This document shows, piece by piece, positions 5,696-37,873 of a stretch of DNA of 64,000 bases. The notes under the pieces were generated by a model. That model was given only the letters and a program-made list of their open reading frames with translations, ran no database searches and had not been told where the DNA came from. Positions within the stretch are counted from its first letter, which is position 1. Every line of letters starts with the position of its first letter. Position numbers and translations under genes: made by a program. Source of the stretch: Escherichia virus TH58; the sequence record MT446423.1; one strand, 5' to 3'.

Positions 5696-5769
5696 GGCCC
5701 TGTAGCTCAATGGTTAGCAGCAGTCCCCTCATAAGGGAAAGGTTACCAGTTCGAATCTGGTCTGGGCCA
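5696..5769 (+). tRNA. tRNA with CAU anticodon (Met or Ile-type)
   Basis: Hand-folded cloverleaf: acceptor GGCCCTG/CTGGGCC (one T-T mismatch), T-arm ACCAG-TTCGAATC-TGGT, anticodon loop CTCATAA; no encoded CCA. Confidence 0.65.
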
Positions 5770-5775
5770 TATATT

Positions 5776-5852
<77 letters not shown>

Positions 5853-33250: not shown

Positions 33251-33724
33251 ATGTTATTATCAGGCGCAAAATATAAAGAAGAAAAACAAAAATTTTATGA
33301 TGCACAGAATGGTAAGTGTCCTATTTGCCACCGTGAATTAGACCCTGATGTTCAAGGTAACCATCTTGACCACGACCACGAATTAAACGGGCCAAAAGCA
33401 GGTAGAGTTCGTGGGTTACTCTGTAATCTGTGCAACGCAGCAGAAGGTCAAATGAAGCATAAGTTCAACCGTTCCGGTCTTAAAGGACGTGATGTTGACT
33501 ACCTCGAATGGCTTGAAGCTCTTCTTGCTTATTTGAAACAAGATTATTCTGATAATAATATCCATCCTAATTTTGTTCCAGACAAAACTAAAGAGTTCTC
33601 AAGACTAGGTAAAGAGGAAATGATGGCTGAGATGCTTCAAAGAGGATTTGAATATAATGAATCTGATACCAAAACACAATTAATAGCTTCATTCAAAAAG
33701 CAGCTTAGAAAGAGTTTAAAATGA
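33251..33724 (+). CDS. 49: Endonuclease VII (Holliday junction resolvase gp49)
   Basis: CPICHREL...HLDHDHELNGPKAGRVRGLLCNLCN zinc and HNH-like motif of T4 endo VII; 157 aa. Confidence 0.9.
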   Translation: MLLSGAKYKEEKQKFYDAQNGKCPICHRELDPDVQGNHLDHDHELNGPKAGRVRGLLCNLCNAAEGQMKHKFNRSGLKGRDVDYLEWLEALLAYLKQDYSDNNIHPNFVPDKTKEFSRLGKEEMMAEMLQRGFEYNESDTKTQLIASFKKQLRKSLK

Positions 33725-34258
33725 AAATTGAAAAAGAAATTGAAGGATTAATTCATAAAACTAATAAAGATCTTTTGAACGAGAATGCTAATAAAGATTC
33801 TCGTGTTTTTCCAACTCAACGGGACCTTATGGCTGGTATTGTGTCTAAGCACATTGCTAGAAATATGGTCCCGTCTTTTATTATGAAAGCACATGAAAGC
33901 GGAATTATCCATTTCCATGATATTGATTATTCCCCTGCTCTTCCGTTTACTAATTGCTGTTTAGTAGATTTAAAAGGAATGCTTGAGAATGGATTTAAAT
34001 TAGGCAATGCTCAAATTGAAACGCCTAAATCTATTGGCGTTGCTACTGCAATTATGGCACAAATTACTGCACAAGTTGCTTCACATCAGTACGGCGGAAC
34101 GACTTTTGCTAATGTAGATAAAGTACTTTCTCCTTATGTTAAACGCACCTATGCAAAACATATTGAGGATGCAGAAAAATGGCAAATCGCTGATGCGTTG
34201 AATTATGCCCAATCTAAAACAGAAAAAGACGTATACGATGCATTCCAAGCTTATGAGT
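33721..34258 (+). CDS. nrdD: Anaerobic ribonucleotide reductase NrdD, exon 1
   Basis: Frame continues to predicted 5' splice site after T34258 (P1: exon ATGAGT pairs with intron GCTCAT 34272-34277, U-G at splice site); in-frame TAA follows in intron. Confidence 0.75.
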
Positions 34259-34469
34259 TAATTTAATTCAGGCTCATGTAAAACCGGTCTAAACGGGGAA
34301 CCTCTCTAGTAGACAATCCCGTGCTAAATGTTCTTTTGAACTAAATGCCTAACGACTAACCGTGATGAATGTAGCGGTGTAGAATAGAAGCTAATGCTAT
34401 TCGAAACGGCCGGCATCGAAAGATGAAGATATAGTCTAATCTGCATGGCGACATGCAGCAGTCATCTTG

Positions 34470-34477
34470 TATAAATA
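34470..34477 (+). promoter_or_regulatory. Late promoter TATAAATA inside the intron, upstream of the homing endonuclease ORF
   Basis: Exact TATAAATA about 30 nt before the ATG at 34507. Confidence 0.45.
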
Positions 34478-34506
34478 AGATTATCTTATGAATACGAGGT
34501 GAAACA

Positions 34507-35277
34507 ATGAAATGGATAAAAAGACGTTGTACTAAAATAAAAGATAAAGACGCATTTACATACTTAGTTAAGTTTTCTAATGGCGACATTTATATCGGTT
34601 ATAAAAAATTTAGAACAATTAAAAACAAGCCCACAAACTGGAAAACTTACACAACGTCATCTAAGTATATAAATGAACGCTTAAAAACTGATACACCTAC
34701 TAAATGGATAATTTTAAAAACATTTGATAGTTATAAAGACGCATTAAAACATGAAGAAGAGGTCATACGTAAATATTTTTATAACAAAAAATGTTTAAAT
34801 AAATCCATAGGCGGTAAAAAGTTTTATAAGCATCCGGATACTGAAGAACATATTCAAAAATTAAGAGATGCTCATAAGGGTAAAGTGTTATCCGAATCTC
34901 ATAAAAACAATATAAAATCTTCTGTAGCTGAATATTATGCTAAAAACGGAAGATCTAAGGAACATGTGCAAAATAATATCAATAGTCGAAAAAGTAAAAA
35001 ACAAGTATCGATAAAGCTTAAAAATAAAACTTTTAGAAGTTTTAAAAAAGCGGCGGAATATTTAAATTGCACTGAAAGTGAAGTCGAAACTCATCCTCTT
35101 GTTTTGAGTATTAAGACTACTATTCATAAAGTTCCTGAATATGTGGTTGTTGACGGTATTAAGTATACGTCTTATATAGAAGCAGCTAAAGCGCTAAATT
35201 TTCATCCTAGCACTATAAAAGAACGTTGCATATCTATGGACTATCCAAATTTTGTTGTTTCATATAAACGGGCATGA
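34507..35277 (+). CDS. Intron-encoded GIY-YIG homing endonuclease (I-TevII-like)
   Basis: N-terminal FTYLVKFSNGDIYIGYKK (GIY-YIG), NUMOD-like repeats, C-terminal HTH-like tail; 256 aa; GAGGTGA RBS. Confidence 0.75.
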   Translation: MKWIKRRCTKIKDKDAFTYLVKFSNGDIYIGYKKFRTIKNKPTNWKTYTTSSKYINERLKTDTPTKWIILKTFDSYKDALKHEEEVIRKYFYNKKCLNKSIGGKKFYKHPDTEEHIQKLRDAHKGKVLSESHKNNIKSSVAEYYAKNGRSKEHVQNNINSRKSKKQVSIKLKNKTFRSFKKAAEYLNCTESEVETHPLVLSIKTTIHKVPEYVVVDGIKYTSYIEAAKALNFHPSTIKERCISMDYPNFVVSYKRA

Positions 35278-35291
35278 ATTTGCGACTCATG

Positions 35292-36583
35292 CTGAATATA
35301 ATGATGAAGTAAATACACTTTTCAGCTCTAATGGACAAACGCCTTTTGTAACAATTACATTTGGAACAGGAACTGACTGGACTGAACGAATGATTCAAAA
35401 AGCAATTCTGAAAAATCGTATTAAAGGTCTTGGACGTGACGGGATAACTCCTATTTTCCCTAAACTTGTTATGTTCGTTGAAGAAGGTGTTAATCTTTAT
35501 AAAGACGACCCGAACTACGATATTAAGCAGCTTGCTCTAGAGTGTGCAAGCAAAAGAATGTATCCTGATATTATTTCGGTTAAGAATAATAAAACTATCA
35601 CCGGTTCTTCAGTTCCTGTTTCTCCAATGGGCTGCCGTAGTTTCTTGAGCGTATGGAAAGATTCGACTGGTAATGAAATTCTTGATGGACGTAATAATCT
35701 TGGCGTTGTAACACTGAATCTTCCTCGTATTGCATTAGATTCTTATATTGGAACACAATTCAATGAACAGAAATTTGTTGAGTTATTTAATGAACGAATG
35801 GATCTGTGTTTTGAAGCCTTGATGTGTAGAATTAGTTCCTTAAAAGGAGTTAAAGCGACTGTTGCTCCTATTCTTTATCAAGAAGGTGCATTTGGGGTTC
35901 GTCTTAAACCTGATGATGACATAATTGAGTTATTTAAAAACGGTAGAAGTTCGGTGTCTTTAGGATACATTGGTATTCATGAATTGAATATTCTTGTCGG
36001 ACGTGATATTGGGCAAGAAATTTTAACTAAAATGAATGCTCGTCTTAAGCAGTGGACTGAAAGAACTGGTTTTGCTTTTAGCTTGTATTCTACTCCCGCT
36101 GAAAACCTTTGTTATCGCTTCTGTAAACTTGATACCGAGAAATATGGAAGTGTAAAAGATGTTACTGATAAAGGCTGGTACACTAATAGTTTCCATGTTT
36201 CAGTAGAAGAAAATATCACTCCGTTTGAAAAGATTTCTCGCGAAGCACCATATCATTTCATTGCGACCGGCGGACACATTTCTTATGTTGAACTTCCTGA
36301 TATGAAAAATAACTTAAAAGGACTTGAGGCTGTATGGGATTATGCCGCACAACATTTAGATTATTTTGGTGTTAATATGCCAGTAGATAAATGTTTTACA
36401 TGTGGAAGTACCCATGAAATGACTCCTACCGAAAACGGATTTGTTTGTTCTATTTGTGGAGAAACTGATCCTAAAAAGATGAACACAATAAGAAGAACAT
36501 GCGGTTATCTCGGAACTCCTAGCGTTGTTCCGTGGAATTTAGGTAAAATGAAAGAAATGGTAAAACGAGTAAAACATGCATAG
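35292..36583 (+). CDS. nrdD: Anaerobic ribonucleotide reductase NrdD, exon 2
   Basis: Contains C-terminal glycyl-radical motif RRTCGYLG and Cys-rich zinc site CFTCGSTHEMTPTENGFVCSICG; spliced product about 609 aa. Confidence 0.8.
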
Positions 36584-37406
36584 GTATTATATAATTTATA
36601 AAATAACAAATATAATTAATTCAAAGGAATATATCGGTGCGCATAGCACCGATAACATAAATGACGGTTATATGGGGTCAGGAACATTGATTCGTGCCGC
36701 TTTATTAAAATATGGTAGAAAAAATTTTAATAAAGAAATTTTACATGTTTTTGATAATGAAAAACAAATGTATGATAAAGAAGCTGAACTTGTAACCGAA
36801 GAGTATTGTCTAAAAGAAAATACATATAATATTAAACCTGGTGGAAAAGGTGGAACTGCCTATGAACAGACACTTGAACATCGCCGCAAAAATAGTTTAG
36901 CAAATAAAGGTAAAAAGAGAACAGAAGAAACTAAAATAGCTATTTCACGTGCTTTAAAGAAATATAAACGTACGCCAGAGCATCAAGCAAATTTAAATAA
37001 AGCCGTAAGCATAGCTATGAAGCGAAAAGATGTTAGAAGTAAATTAGCTGGAGAGCGGTCTGAGAAAGATAAATTATCTATATCAAACGGTGTTAAAAAA
37101 TATTACAATTCTTTGAGTGAAGAAGAACGCGAACTTCATCGCAAGCGAATTATTGAAGGTAAAAAGAATTCTCCCATGTCATTGGAATCTAGACAAAAGC
37201 TTTCAAAAGCTTTAAAAGGACTTCAAGTTGGTTCAAAAAATCCAATGTATGGAAAAATTTCTCCGACTAGCAAAACCGTTTCAGTTGACGGTATTAAATA
37301 TGATTCAATTAAAAAGTGCTCAAATGCCATAAAAGTTTCTAGACATCTTATACTAAAACGCTGTAATTCTACTGATGAAGCTTGGAAAAATTGGGTATTA
37401 TTATGA
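36576..37406 (+). CDS. Free-standing GIY-YIG homing endonuclease (seg-like)
   Basis: YYIIYKITNIINSKEYIGAHS...YMGSGTLIRAALLKYGRKNF; NUMOD3-like repeats; overlaps nrdD stop and nrdG start (ATGA at both ends). Confidence 0.75.
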   Translation: MHRYYIIYKITNIINSKEYIGAHSTDNINDGYMGSGTLIRAALLKYGRKNFNKEILHVFDNEKQMYDKEAELVTEEYCLKENTYNIKPGGKGGTAYEQTLEHRRKNSLANKGKKRTEETKIAISRALKKYKRTPEHQANLNKAVSIAMKRKDVRSKLAGERSEKDKLSISNGVKKYYNSLSEEERELHRKRIIEGKKNSPMSLESRQKLSKALKGLQVGSKNPMYGKISPTSKTVSVDGIKYDSIKKCSNAIKVSRHLILKRCNSTDEAWKNWVLL

Positions 37407-37873
37407 ATTATGATAGATTTTATCCTTGCGATTTTGTGAATGGTCCTGGTTGCAGGGTTGTTCTTTTCGTTACAGGGTGTTTGCATAAATGCGAAGGGTG
37501 TTATAATAAATCAACATGGAATGCTAGAAATGGTATTCCATTCACTGGTGAAACACTAGAGCAATTAATTGAATGTTTGAATAATGATTATATAGAAGGA
37601 TTAACTATAACTGGAGGAGACCCTCTCTATCCTGATAACCGAGATGTTGTTCATTGCATCGTTCAAACAGTAAAAAATCTTTGTCCCAATAAAAGCATTT
37701 GGTTATGGACAGGATATAAGTTTGAAGATATTAAACAACTAGAAATGCTTAAATATGTTGATGTTATTATTGATGGGAAGTATGAGAAAAATCTTCCGAC
37801 CAAAAAACTGTGGCGAGGATCAGATAATCAGCGACTTTGGTCAAATACCGATGGGGTGTGGAAACATGATTAA
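37403..37873 (+). CDS. nrdG: Anaerobic ribonucleotide reductase activating protein NrdG
   Basis: Radical-SAM-like CxxxCxxC (CLHKCEGC) near the N-terminus; 156 aa. Confidence 0.85.
   Translation: MNYDRFYPCDFVNGPGCRVVLFVTGCLHKCEGCYNKSTWNARNGIPFTGETLEQLIECLNNDYIEGLTITGGDPLYPDNRDVVHCIVQTVKNLCPNKSIWLWTGYKFEDIKQLEMLKYVDVIIDGKYEKNLPTKKLWRGSDNQRLWSNTDGVWKHD

What the first reader, a model, noticed from the sequence alone, without database searches (positions are those of the whole stretch)
33721..36583. nrdD interrupted by a 1033-nt group I intron with predictable splice sites and a GIY-YIG homing endonuclease
Conserved T4-type intron core blocks are present. P1 (exon ATGAGT with intron GCTCAT, U-G at the splice site) places the 5' splice site after 34258; P10 (exon-2 CTGAAT with intron ATTCAG) places the 3' splice site after G35291, restoring the NrdD frame (junction ...QAYE-S-EYNDEV...). 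The intron ORF (34507-35277) is GIY-YIG with its own late promoter TATAAATA.
Basis: partly seen in the sequence, partly recalled or inferred. Interest (0 to 1): 0.55.

Follow-up and report, generated by a model that had tools for sequence, protein, structure and literature searches.

The report
T4-type nrdD intron, 3' end misplaced

Summary
The core of the finding holds. nrdD (33721-36583) is split by a group I intron. Rfam RF00028 scores 72 bits against a gathering score of 50. The intron carries an intact 256-aa GIY-YIG ORF (34507-35277) that is 56% identical to T4 I-TevII. It sits at exactly the T4 nrdD insertion site. The 5' splice site (after U34258, U·G with G34272), the ORF coordinates and the TATAAATA box (34470-34477) are correct.

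The 3' splice site and the length are most likely wrong. At least 600 intron-less phage nrdD alleles, and crystallised T4 NrdD, read QAYE-Y-EVNTL. The inserted DNA is therefore 34259-35303 (1045 nt), and the 12 nt CTGAATATAATG belong to the intron. Covariation conserves this hairpin in the T4 td, nrdB and nrdD introns. In each it is followed by GAAYAYAWNG and then the splice site, which places the terminal G at 35303. The figure of 1033 nt is T4's length.

The element is a second lineage of the nrdD intron, present unannotated in about 45 public genomes. Its P4-P6 block is td-like. This is ordinary, known biology with a corrected junction.

The parts
33721..34258 (+). nrdD exon 1 (538 nt). The ATG overlaps the stop of gene 49 (endonuclease VII, 33251-33724). 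The exon ends ...GCU UAU GAG U.
   Evidence: Pfam NRDD 1-141, E=1.9e-40. It is 94.6% identical to T4 exon 1, which is also 538 nt.
34259..35303 (+). Group I intron, 1045 nt. This is the DNA that is absent from intron-less nrdD alleles.
   Evidence: A 400-nt query spliced at 34258|35304 matches 621 of 691 phage records over at least 80% of its length. All 35 full-length Tequatrovirus-type rows listed are single ungapped 400-nt pieces. T2 and Pu-Krd-SF4 read GAAT|ATGAAGT. Seven of the nine window-type introns extracted (this window plus six other phages) are 1045 nt by these boundaries, and two are ORF-deleted at 345 and 479 nt.
34252..34278 (+). P1. The exon strand UAUGAGU (34252-34258) pairs with the internal guide GCUCAUG (34272-34278), with U34258·G34272 at the 5' splice site. 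The loop is 34259-34271. UUCA (34267-34270) can form a 4-bp P10 with exon-2 UGAA (35305-35308).
   Evidence: Read from the sequence. RNAalifold predicts the same helix, invariant in both lineages. The site is the same as T4's annotated junction.
34223..34458 (+). Ribozyme core P1-P9. P3 is 34284-34289/34408-34413. P7.1 and P7.2 are 34359-34402. P9 is 34441-34458 with a GCGA tetraloop. J7/9 is UAAU, 34437-34440.
   Evidence: RF00028 at 72 bits, full-length. Of 55 predicted pairs, 13 show compensatory double changes between the window type and the T4 type.
34462..34502 (+). Hairpin that sequesters the endonuclease ribosome-binding site. An 11-bp outer stem (34462-34472/34492-34502) encloses a small hairpin (34475-34489). 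The Shine-Dalgarno GAGG (34496-34499) lies in the 3' strand.
   Evidence: Minimum free energy -17.8 kcal/mol, z=-4.47. [quoted passage not shown]
34470..34477 (+). TATAAATA, a T4 late-promoter box inside the hairpin. Late transcripts would start downstream of the 5' strand and leave the ribosome-binding site free (inferred).
   Evidence: Exact match. A TATAAATA box lies in T4 a few nt from the aligned position, in the 5' strand and loop of T4's own RBS hairpin just upstream of I-TevII. The homologous box is annotated as a late promoter in phage SA20RB. The motif count in the window is not above chance.
34507..35277 (+). Intron ORF of 256 aa: a GIY-YIG homing endonuclease, homologous to I-TevII.
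   Evidence: PF19835 and NUMOD1 above their cut-offs. phrog_314 'homing endonuclease', E=4.4e-29. 56% identity to T4 I-TevII, E=2e-102. About 44 phage records are at least 95% identical.
35271..35293 (+). 3'-terminal hairpin. The 7-bp stem is GGCAUGA/UCAUGCU and the loop is 35278-35286.
   Evidence: It is the minimum-free-energy structure in both the window and T4 at homologous positions. Four of 7 pairs are changed on both sides relative to T4 with all 7 pairs kept; the null expectation is 0.1-4%. A G·U to A-U change occurs in phages KAW3E185 and 215Ecol030PP. The same 7-bp hairpin is present in T4 td, T4 nrdB and the HMD-9 td intron.
35294..35303 (+). Intron tail GAAUAUAAUG ending in the terminal G35303. 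A35301 and U35302 can pair with U34440 and A34439 of J7/9 (P9.0).
   Evidence: A homologous tail GAAYAYAWNG, 9-10 nt long, precedes the splice site in T4 nrdD, td and nrdB. The P9.0 partners co-vary: T4 has AA/UU and the window has AU/AU.
35304..36583 (+). nrdD exon 2 (1280 nt including the stop, as in T4). The spliced product is 605 aa and reads ...QAYE-Y-EVNTLF...
   Evidence: Translation. The 122 residues around the junction are identical to PDB 1H78 and related T4 NrdD chains. Pfam NRDD scores 572.9 bits.

Best explanation
This is a mobile group I intron of the T4 (subgroup IA2-like) type, inserted in nrdD at the same position as the T4 nrdD/sunY intron. It spans 34259-35303 (1045 nt).

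The ribozyme core occupies the first ~200 nt (P1-P9). The endonuclease ORF follows P9, and a short 3' module brings the distant 3' splice site back to the core. That module is a 7-bp hairpin, a 10-nt tail and the terminal G35303.

Splicing is inferred to follow the standard pathway. Guanosine attacks after U34258, which is held in P1 by U·G with G34272. Then G35303 docks in the core, helped by a 2-bp P9.0 (34439-34440 with 35301-35302) and a 4-bp P10 (34267-34270 with 35305-35308). The exons are ligated to ...GAG U|AU GAA GUA..., giving a 605-aa NrdD colinear with T4 NrdD.

The ORF encodes an I-TevII-like GIY-YIG endonuclease. It is inferred to cut intron-less nrdD alleles in co-infecting phages and so copy the intron into them. 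Its translation is inferred to be confined to late infection. A hairpin hides its Shine-Dalgarno sequence in read-through transcripts. A TATAAATA late promoter inside that hairpin gives transcripts that lack the 5' strand.

Shown here: the intron boundaries relative to intron-less alleles, the core match, the covariation and the protein homologies. Inferred from the T4 paradigm: catalysis, homing and the timing of expression.
For: The core matches RF00028 at 72 bits, full length, with 13 compensatory pairs against the T4 intron. The insertion site and exon-1 length are the same as in T4.

Intron-less alleles are colinear with the 34258|35304 junction: 621 of 691 records cover at least 80% of the query, the listed rows are ungapped, and T2, Pu-Krd-SF4 and Merlin were read directly.

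The 3' module (hairpin plus GAAYAYAWNG) is conserved with covariation in T4 td, nrdB and nrdD and in the HMD-9 td intron, with the splice site 9-10 nt after the stem.

The ORF is intact, carries GIY-YIG and NUMOD1, and is 56% identical to I-TevII. The RBS hairpin has z=-4.47 and encloses TATAAATA, as published for the T4 intron endonucleases (PMC2988022).

Natural ORF-deleted derivatives keep the core and the 3' module.
Against: No RNA data exist for this lineage. The upstream G35291 is preceded by AU, which is compatible with P9.0. It is followed by CUGAAU, which can form a perfect 6-bp P10 contiguous with P1. The homologous site has only 4 bp, offset by one. Cryptic or partial use of G35291 therefore cannot be excluded.

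The covariation rests on few independent lineages: two nrdD types, plus td and nrdB. The nrdB junction used was chosen among five frame-compatible candidates.

The published long-range pairing that activates the T4 sunY 3' junction could not be consulted, because the paper is not held. I could not identify that pairing unambiguously.
Confidence: 0.85

Rival explanations
1. One reading: the intron is 34259-35291 (1033 nt). The 3' splice site follows G35291 and is selected by a 6-bp P10 (CUGAAU with AUUCAG). NrdD is 609 aa, with SEYND in place of Y180.
For: The 6-bp complementarity adjacent to the P1 guide is real. G35291 is preceded by AU like the homologous site. The reading frame is preserved.
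Against: The 12 nt are absent from every intron-less allele examined, and the homologous 12 nt are intronic in T4. The 4-aa insertion lowers the NRDD profile score by 14 bits. G35291, C35292 and U35293 are paired in a hairpin supported by covariation across four intron lineages; T4 has A at the position of G35291. Most of the complementarity (UGAA) follows from the conserved tail motif UGAAY resembling the exon-2 start AUGAAG. The value 1033 is T4's length.
Confidence: 0.05
2. Both G35291 and G35303 are used. In-frame alternative 3' splicing then gives a major 605-aa and a minor 609-aa NrdD.
For: Both sites have an AU-G context and a UGAA-containing downstream sequence, and the upstream site has the stronger P10. 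From my own recollection of the abstract, not verified here, proximal cryptic 3' splicing was described for T4 sunY constructs in vitro (Michel et al. 1992).
Against: Hairpin 35271-35293 (about -7 to -8 kcal/mol) must open for G35291 to be used. There is no coding-type constraint on the 12 nt: compared with T4 the changes would be non-synonymous, SEYN against SEHI.
Confidence: 0.08
3. The intron is dead. nrdD is then a split or disrupted gene, either non-functional or expressed as two polypeptides in the way some homing-endonuclease insertions split RNR genes.
For: Public records annotate two separate nrdD CDSs without a join.
Against: The core scores the same as in related phages and is maintained by compensatory changes. 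Both exons are under strong conservation (91-95% to T4) with no frameshift. Exon 2 has no start codon or ribosome-binding site of its own at the boundary; the annotated starts lie inside the intron. The split annotation is an artefact of gene callers.
Confidence: 0.02

Closest known systems
Bacteriophage T4 nrdD (sunY) group I intron with I-TevII
   Same: The host gene, the insertion site (after ...UAUGAGU), the P1 guide GCUCAU, the 538-nt exon 1 and the 1280-nt exon 2 are all the same. The architecture is the same: the core comes first, the ORF follows P9, then a 3' hairpin and tail. The RBS hairpin with TATAAATA is shared. The endonuclease is homologous over its full length.
   Different: The length is 1045 nt against 1033 nt. 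The 5' non-coding part of the intron (core, 34259-34469) is only 72.5% identical, the ORF is 63.7% identical in nucleotides and 56% in amino acids, and the endonuclease is 256 aa against 258 aa. P3, P4, P6a, P7.1, P7.2 and the 3' hairpin differ by compensatory changes. P7.2 is longer. The leader is AUUCAG instead of GUCAAG. J7/9 is UAAU instead of UGAA.
T4-family td intron (ORF-less form in phage HMD-9; T4 td intron with I-TevI)
   Same: The block 34287-34358 (J3/4 to P7 5') is 71/72 identical to the HMD-9 td intron. The 3' module has the same form, and the tail GAAUAUAAUG differs by one base from td's GAACAUAAUG.
   Different: The host gene and guide sequence differ. In td the ORF lies in the P6a loop rather than after P9. 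P1-P3 and P7.1 are of the nrdD type.
GIY-YIG homing endonucleases with NUMOD DNA-binding modules (I-TevI, I-TevII, Seg proteins)
   Same: It has an N-terminal GIY-YIG domain (…FTYLVKF…IYIGYKK…) and a C-terminal NUMOD1-type module.
   Different: Activity and target site are untested. Outside the I-TevII clade the next relatives in the phage collection are only ~32-34% identical, over the N-terminal 100 aa.

Membership tests
Group I intron (Rfam RF00028) | Conserved catalytic core P3-P9 scoring above the curated threshold | tested here: met
   72 bits against a gathering score of 50, model positions 1-253 of 253, E=4.8e-18. ORF-less relatives score 70.9-72 bits.
Group I intron (Rfam RF00028) | P1 formed by the 5' exon end and an internal guide, with U·G at the 5' splice site | tested here: met
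   UAUGAGU (34252-34258) pairs with GCUCAUG (34272-34278), with U34258·G34272. It is identical to T4.
Group I intron (Rfam RF00028) | Terminal G at the 3' splice site, with P9.0 and P10 | tested here: met
G35303, with a 2-bp P9.0 that co-varies with T4 and a 4-bp P10. The site is assigned by homology and by colinearity with intron-less alleles, not by RNA data.
Group I intron (Rfam RF00028) | Precise absence from intron-less alleles, with an uninterrupted host ORF after removal | tested here: met
Group I intron (Rfam RF00028) | Guanosine-dependent self-splicing | not testable with these tools
   This needs in vitro transcription and splicing, or RT-PCR.
T4 nrdD/sunY intron lineage | Same insertion site in nrdD and the same domain order (core, ORF after P9, 3' hairpin and tail) | tested here: met
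T4 nrdD/sunY intron lineage | Near-identity to the T4 intron (1033 nt) | tested here: not met
   The 5' non-coding part (core) is 72.5% identical, the ORF is 63.7% identical, and the length is 1045 nt. This is a sister lineage, not the T4 intron itself.
GIY-YIG homing endonuclease (I-TevII-like) | GIY-YIG catalytic domain | tested here: met
   PF19835 scores 27.7 bits against a cut-off of 25. The GIY/YIG residues are conserved with I-TevII.
GIY-YIG homing endonuclease (I-TevII-like) | Full-length homology to I-TevII | tested here: met
   145 of 257 residues identical, E=2e-102.
GIY-YIG homing endonuclease (I-TevII-like) | Site-specific cleavage of the intron-less nrdD allele | not testable with these tools
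   This needs a cleavage assay.
Class III ribonucleotide reductase NrdD | NRDD domain continuous across the exon junction, plus the glycyl-radical domain | tested here: met
   PF13597 positions 1-562 at 572.9 bits and PF01228 at 88 bits on the 605-aa product. The RTCGYLG motif is present.
T4 late promoter | TATAAATA box placed upstream of the gene | tested here: inconclusive
   The box is at 34470-34477, close to the corresponding T4 box. The motif is no more frequent in the window than chance (7 against 8.3 expected), and its activity is untested.

The most novel reading that the evidence does not exclude
The window-type intron has two competing in-frame 3' splice sites. One is G35291, with a strong 6-bp P10 but buried in the 3' hairpin. 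The other is G35303, the homologous site. A fraction of transcripts could then give a 609-aa NrdD isoform, or opening of the hairpin could tune how much functional nrdD mRNA is made. That would be alternative splicing by a phage group I intron.
Probability: 0.07. Interest if true: 0.5.

Novelty: new member of a known kind. Interest (0 to 1): 0.2.

Why it matters
The practical value is a corrected annotation. About 45 public T4-like genomes carry this element with nrdD annotated as two unrelated CDSs and no join. The junction 34258|35304 gives the true 605-aa NrdD.

The biological point is modest. Two diverged intron and endonuclease lineages (56% amino-acid identity) occupy the same nrdD homing site in Tequatrovirus phages. 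One of them carries a td-type P4-P6 block and decays to ORF-less forms. This illustrates the homing cycle and intron domain shuffling in nature, both already known in principle.

The case also shows that a good-looking P10 can mislead splice-site prediction when a conserved tail motif mimics the exon.

Tried and rejected
1. The whole-window Rfam gathering scan found only two tRNAs. The intron appeared only when the 1.15-kb region was scanned.

2. I searched for the published long-range pairing between the sunY core and the nucleotides before the 3' junction. The paper is not held. Exhaustive lists of core-tail complementarity in the window and in T4, and of helices possible in both at aligned positions, gave only weak or inconsistent candidates. 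These were L7.1 AAUGU with ACAUU in T4 only, L9 with 35290-35294 mostly through G·U pairs, and P7.2 mimicry. None was adopted.

3. IMG/VR scans for more intron variants returned a single T4-type contig, both by tail pattern and by endonuclease alignment. No third lineage was found. tblastn in the phage collection likewise shows only two clades.

4. The MAFFT alignments of the 3' tails put the gap inside the stem, so the count of structure pairs could not be used in register. The pair table was computed by script instead.

5. The SegH paper (PMC1275590) and the Genes & Development paper were not available.

6. I rejected the idea that the 12 nt are coding. They are absent from intron-less alleles, and their differences from T4 would be non-synonymous.
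Full report
**What is there**

The region lies in a T4-like (Tequatrovirus) gene block. Gene 49 (endonuclease VII) is at 33251-33724. An NrdD N-terminal ORF follows at 33721-34266. Next comes a non-coding stretch, then a 256-aa ORF at 34507-35277, then the rest of nrdD to 36583. After that come a 276-aa GIY-YIG ORF (36576-37406) and nrdG (37382-37873).

The best public match over 33721-36583 is Escherichia phage F2, at 96.7% identity. Gene order is the same as in T4.

**Checking the observation**

A group I catalytic core is present. A scan of 34200-35350 against Rfam gives RF00028 at 34223-34458. The score is 72 bits against a gathering score of 50, E=4.8e-18, over the full model. The 64-kb gathering scan had missed it.

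Exon 1 covers Pfam NRDD positions 1-141. Exon 2 covers positions 145-562 plus the glycyl-radical domain.

The ORF passes the curated cut-offs of a GIY-YIG model (PF19835, 27.7 against 25) and of NUMOD1 (25.1 against 22.8). It hits the PHROG homing-endonuclease family. It is 56% identical to T4 I-TevII over its whole length, E=2e-102.

AUGAGU (34253-34258) pairs with GCUCAU (34272-34277), with U34258·G34272. This is identical to T4 and invariant in both lineages.

**The 3' splice site**

T4's nrdD span is 2851 nt and its product is 605 aa. Its intron is therefore 1033 nt, with a 538-nt exon 1 and a 1280-nt exon 2.

Aligned with T4, the window's homologous 3' junction is ...AUAAUG|AUGAAGU, after G35303. 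It is not after G35291. With that junction the intron is 1045 nt and the product is 605 aa, reading QAYE-Y-EVNTLF. The 122 residues around the junction are identical to the crystallised T4 NrdD chains 1H78, 1H79, 1H7A, 1H7B and 1HK8.

A 400-nt query made of 34059-34258 joined to 35304-35503 matched 691 phage records. In 621 of them the match covers at least 80% of the query. The listed full-length Tequatrovirus-type rows are single ungapped 400-nt pieces.

T2 and Pu-Krd-SF4 read ...GCTTATGAAT|ATGAAGTAAAT. The Moonvirus phage Merlin, only 77% identical in DNA, still encodes QAYEYEVNTLFSSNGQTPFVT.

The 12 nt CTGAATATAATG (35292-35303) are therefore part of the inserted element. The boundaries cannot slide, because the flanking bases differ.

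The complementarity of CUGAAU (35292-35297) to AUUCAG (34266-34271) is real and contiguous with P1. However, 35271-35277 (GGCAUGA) and 35287-35293 (UCAUGCU) form a 7-bp hairpin. This hairpin is the minimum-free-energy fold of the tail, and T4 folds into a hairpin at the homologous position (GGUAGAG/CUCUACU).

Four of the seven pairs differ on both sides between the two lineages, and all seven stay paired. A simple substitution null gives 0.1% for this outcome, or 3.9% when only the observed positions are changed. A variant in phages KAW3E185 and 215Ecol030PP turns the terminal G·U pair into A-U.

The same module occurs in the T4 td intron, an ORF-less td intron (phage HMD-9) and the T4 nrdB intron. 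The module has three parts:
- (A/C)CGGG;
- a 7-bp stem around a 9-10-nt loop;
- GAAYAYAWNG, ending at the splice site 9-10 nt after the stem.

Every stem is fully paired, and there are 2-4 pair types per position.

G35291 is the 3' partner of pair 3, and T4 has A there. C35292 and U35293 are pairs 2 and 1. That motif happens to resemble the real exon-2 start AUGAAG.

At the homologous site the window has a 4-bp P10 (UGAA 35305-35308 with UUCA 34267-34270); T4 has 3 bp. It also has a 2-bp P9.0 (A35301 and U35302 with U34440 and A34439), whose partners co-vary with T4 (UU with AA).

I put about 85% on G35303 as the functional site. I put about 5% on exclusive use of G35291 and about 8% on mixed use. 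Only RNA data can settle this.

**The ribozyme is maintained, not decaying**

RNAalifold was run on the window-type and T4-type cores. It gives 55 pairs. Thirteen of them have compensatory double changes, in P3, P4, P6a, P7.1 and P7.2. The two lineages are 72.5% identical in the 5' non-coding part of the intron (34259-34469) and 63.7% in the ORF. The exons are 91-95% identical.

**Expression signals of the ORF**

An 11-bp stem (34462-34472/34492-34502; -17.8 kcal/mol, z=-4.47) buries the Shine-Dalgarno GAGG (34496-34499). It encloses TATAAATA (34470-34477). [quoted passage not shown]

The box itself is not statistically enriched in the window: 7 found against 8.3 expected. The argument therefore rests on position and on conservation with T4.

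Bases 34485-34503 match the intron-less homing site at 16 of 19 positions. This fits the operator idea proposed in the same review. I have not tested it.

**Distribution and comparison with what is known**

In the phage collection there are two clades of this intron and endonuclease at the same nrdD site:
- The window type is in about 45 records. The intron is 99.5-99.7% identical and the ORF is at least 95% identical. Hosts include Escherichia, Shigella, Salmonella and Proteus.
- The T4 type (I-TevII) is in about 25-30 records.

No third clade was found.

None of the window-type records inspected annotates a joined nrdD. The exon-2 CDSs start at spurious in-frame codons inside the intron.

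Two phages carry ORF-deleted versions, of 345 nt and 479 nt. Both keep the core (71-72 bits) and the 3' module. Two more records have the ORF broken in two pieces. This is the expected degenerative phase of a homing element.

The element is thus a sister lineage of the well-studied T4 nrdD/sunY intron, not the T4 intron itself and not a new kind of element.

**Verdict**

The identification is correct and the biology is ordinary. The predicted 3' splice site, the length and the protein junction should be corrected to G35303, 1045 nt and QAYE-Y-EVNTL. Interest is low.

Noticed in passing
window 34287-34358: The P4-P6 block of this nrdD intron (J3/4 to the 5' strand of P7) is 71/72 identical to the ORF-less td intron of phage HMD-9, and about 42-44 nt of it are identical to the T4 td intron. 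It is only 52/72 identical to the T4 nrdD intron. P1-P3 and P7.1 are of the nrdD type. This looks like natural domain shuffling between the td and nrdD introns.
   Followed up: partly
L008 (phage BYEP01) 1020-1364; L009 (phage 215Ecol030PP) 886-1364: These are ORF-deleted derivatives of the window-type intron, 345 and 479 nt long. The BYEP01 deletion lies between the short repeats AAAGACGTTG and AAGAACGTTG. It fuses the endonuclease start codon in frame to nrdD exon 2, which misled the record's annotation. Both derivatives keep the full Rfam core and the 3' hairpin and tail.
   Followed up: partly
window 36576-37406 (and 36520-36583): The GIY-YIG ORF between nrdD and nrdG is segH: it is 99.1% identical to the LZ2 'segH' deposit AY262139, and it stands where T4 has the HNH gene mobC. 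Its ATG overlaps the nrdD stop codon. The last ~22 residues of NrdD differ from T4 (TPSVVPWNLGKMKEMVKRVKHA against NPNERGFNLGKNKEIMHRVKHQ). Phages with mobC match nrdD only up to about window 36519, so the cassette boundary lies inside the 3' end of nrdD.
   Followed up: partly
window 34485-34503: CTTATGAATACGAGGTGAA, overlapping the endonuclease ribosome-binding site, matches the intron-less nrdD homing site CTTATGAATATGAAGTAAA at 16 of 19 positions. It is a candidate autorepression operator, as proposed for I-TevII in PMC2988022.
   Followed up: no
window 35254-35272: The last ~19 nt of the endonuclease ORF before the 3' hairpin ((G/A)TTGTTTCATATAAACGGG) are identical to T4 at 18 of 19 positions, although the ORF overall is only 64% identical. 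This suggests an RNA-level constraint. Several conserved complementarities are possible (to GUGAAAC at the RBS, to GAAACGG at J7.2/P3, to the 3' strand of P4), but none could be singled out.
   Followed up: partly
window 5696-5769 and 5776-5849: Two adjacent tRNA genes on the + strand (Rfam 57 and 71 bits).
   Followed up: no
window 34223-34458 (method): The Rfam gathering-threshold scan of the whole 64-kb window failed to report a group I intron that scores 72 bits when the local 1.15 kb is scanned. Speed filters can hide ORF-bearing introns in long AT-rich queries.
   Followed up: yes
exon flanks: window 34250-34258 and 35304-35323; L004, L005, L010-L012: Intron-containing alleles read GAG-U at the end of exon 1, where intron-less alleles read GAA-U. 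This silent change strengthens P1. T4-type introns are followed by ATGAAGTGAACACGTTATTC. Window-type introns are followed by sequences close to the intron-less allele (ATGAAGTAAATAC[A/T]CT...). This is consistent with different co-conversion tracts for the two lineages.
   Followed up: no
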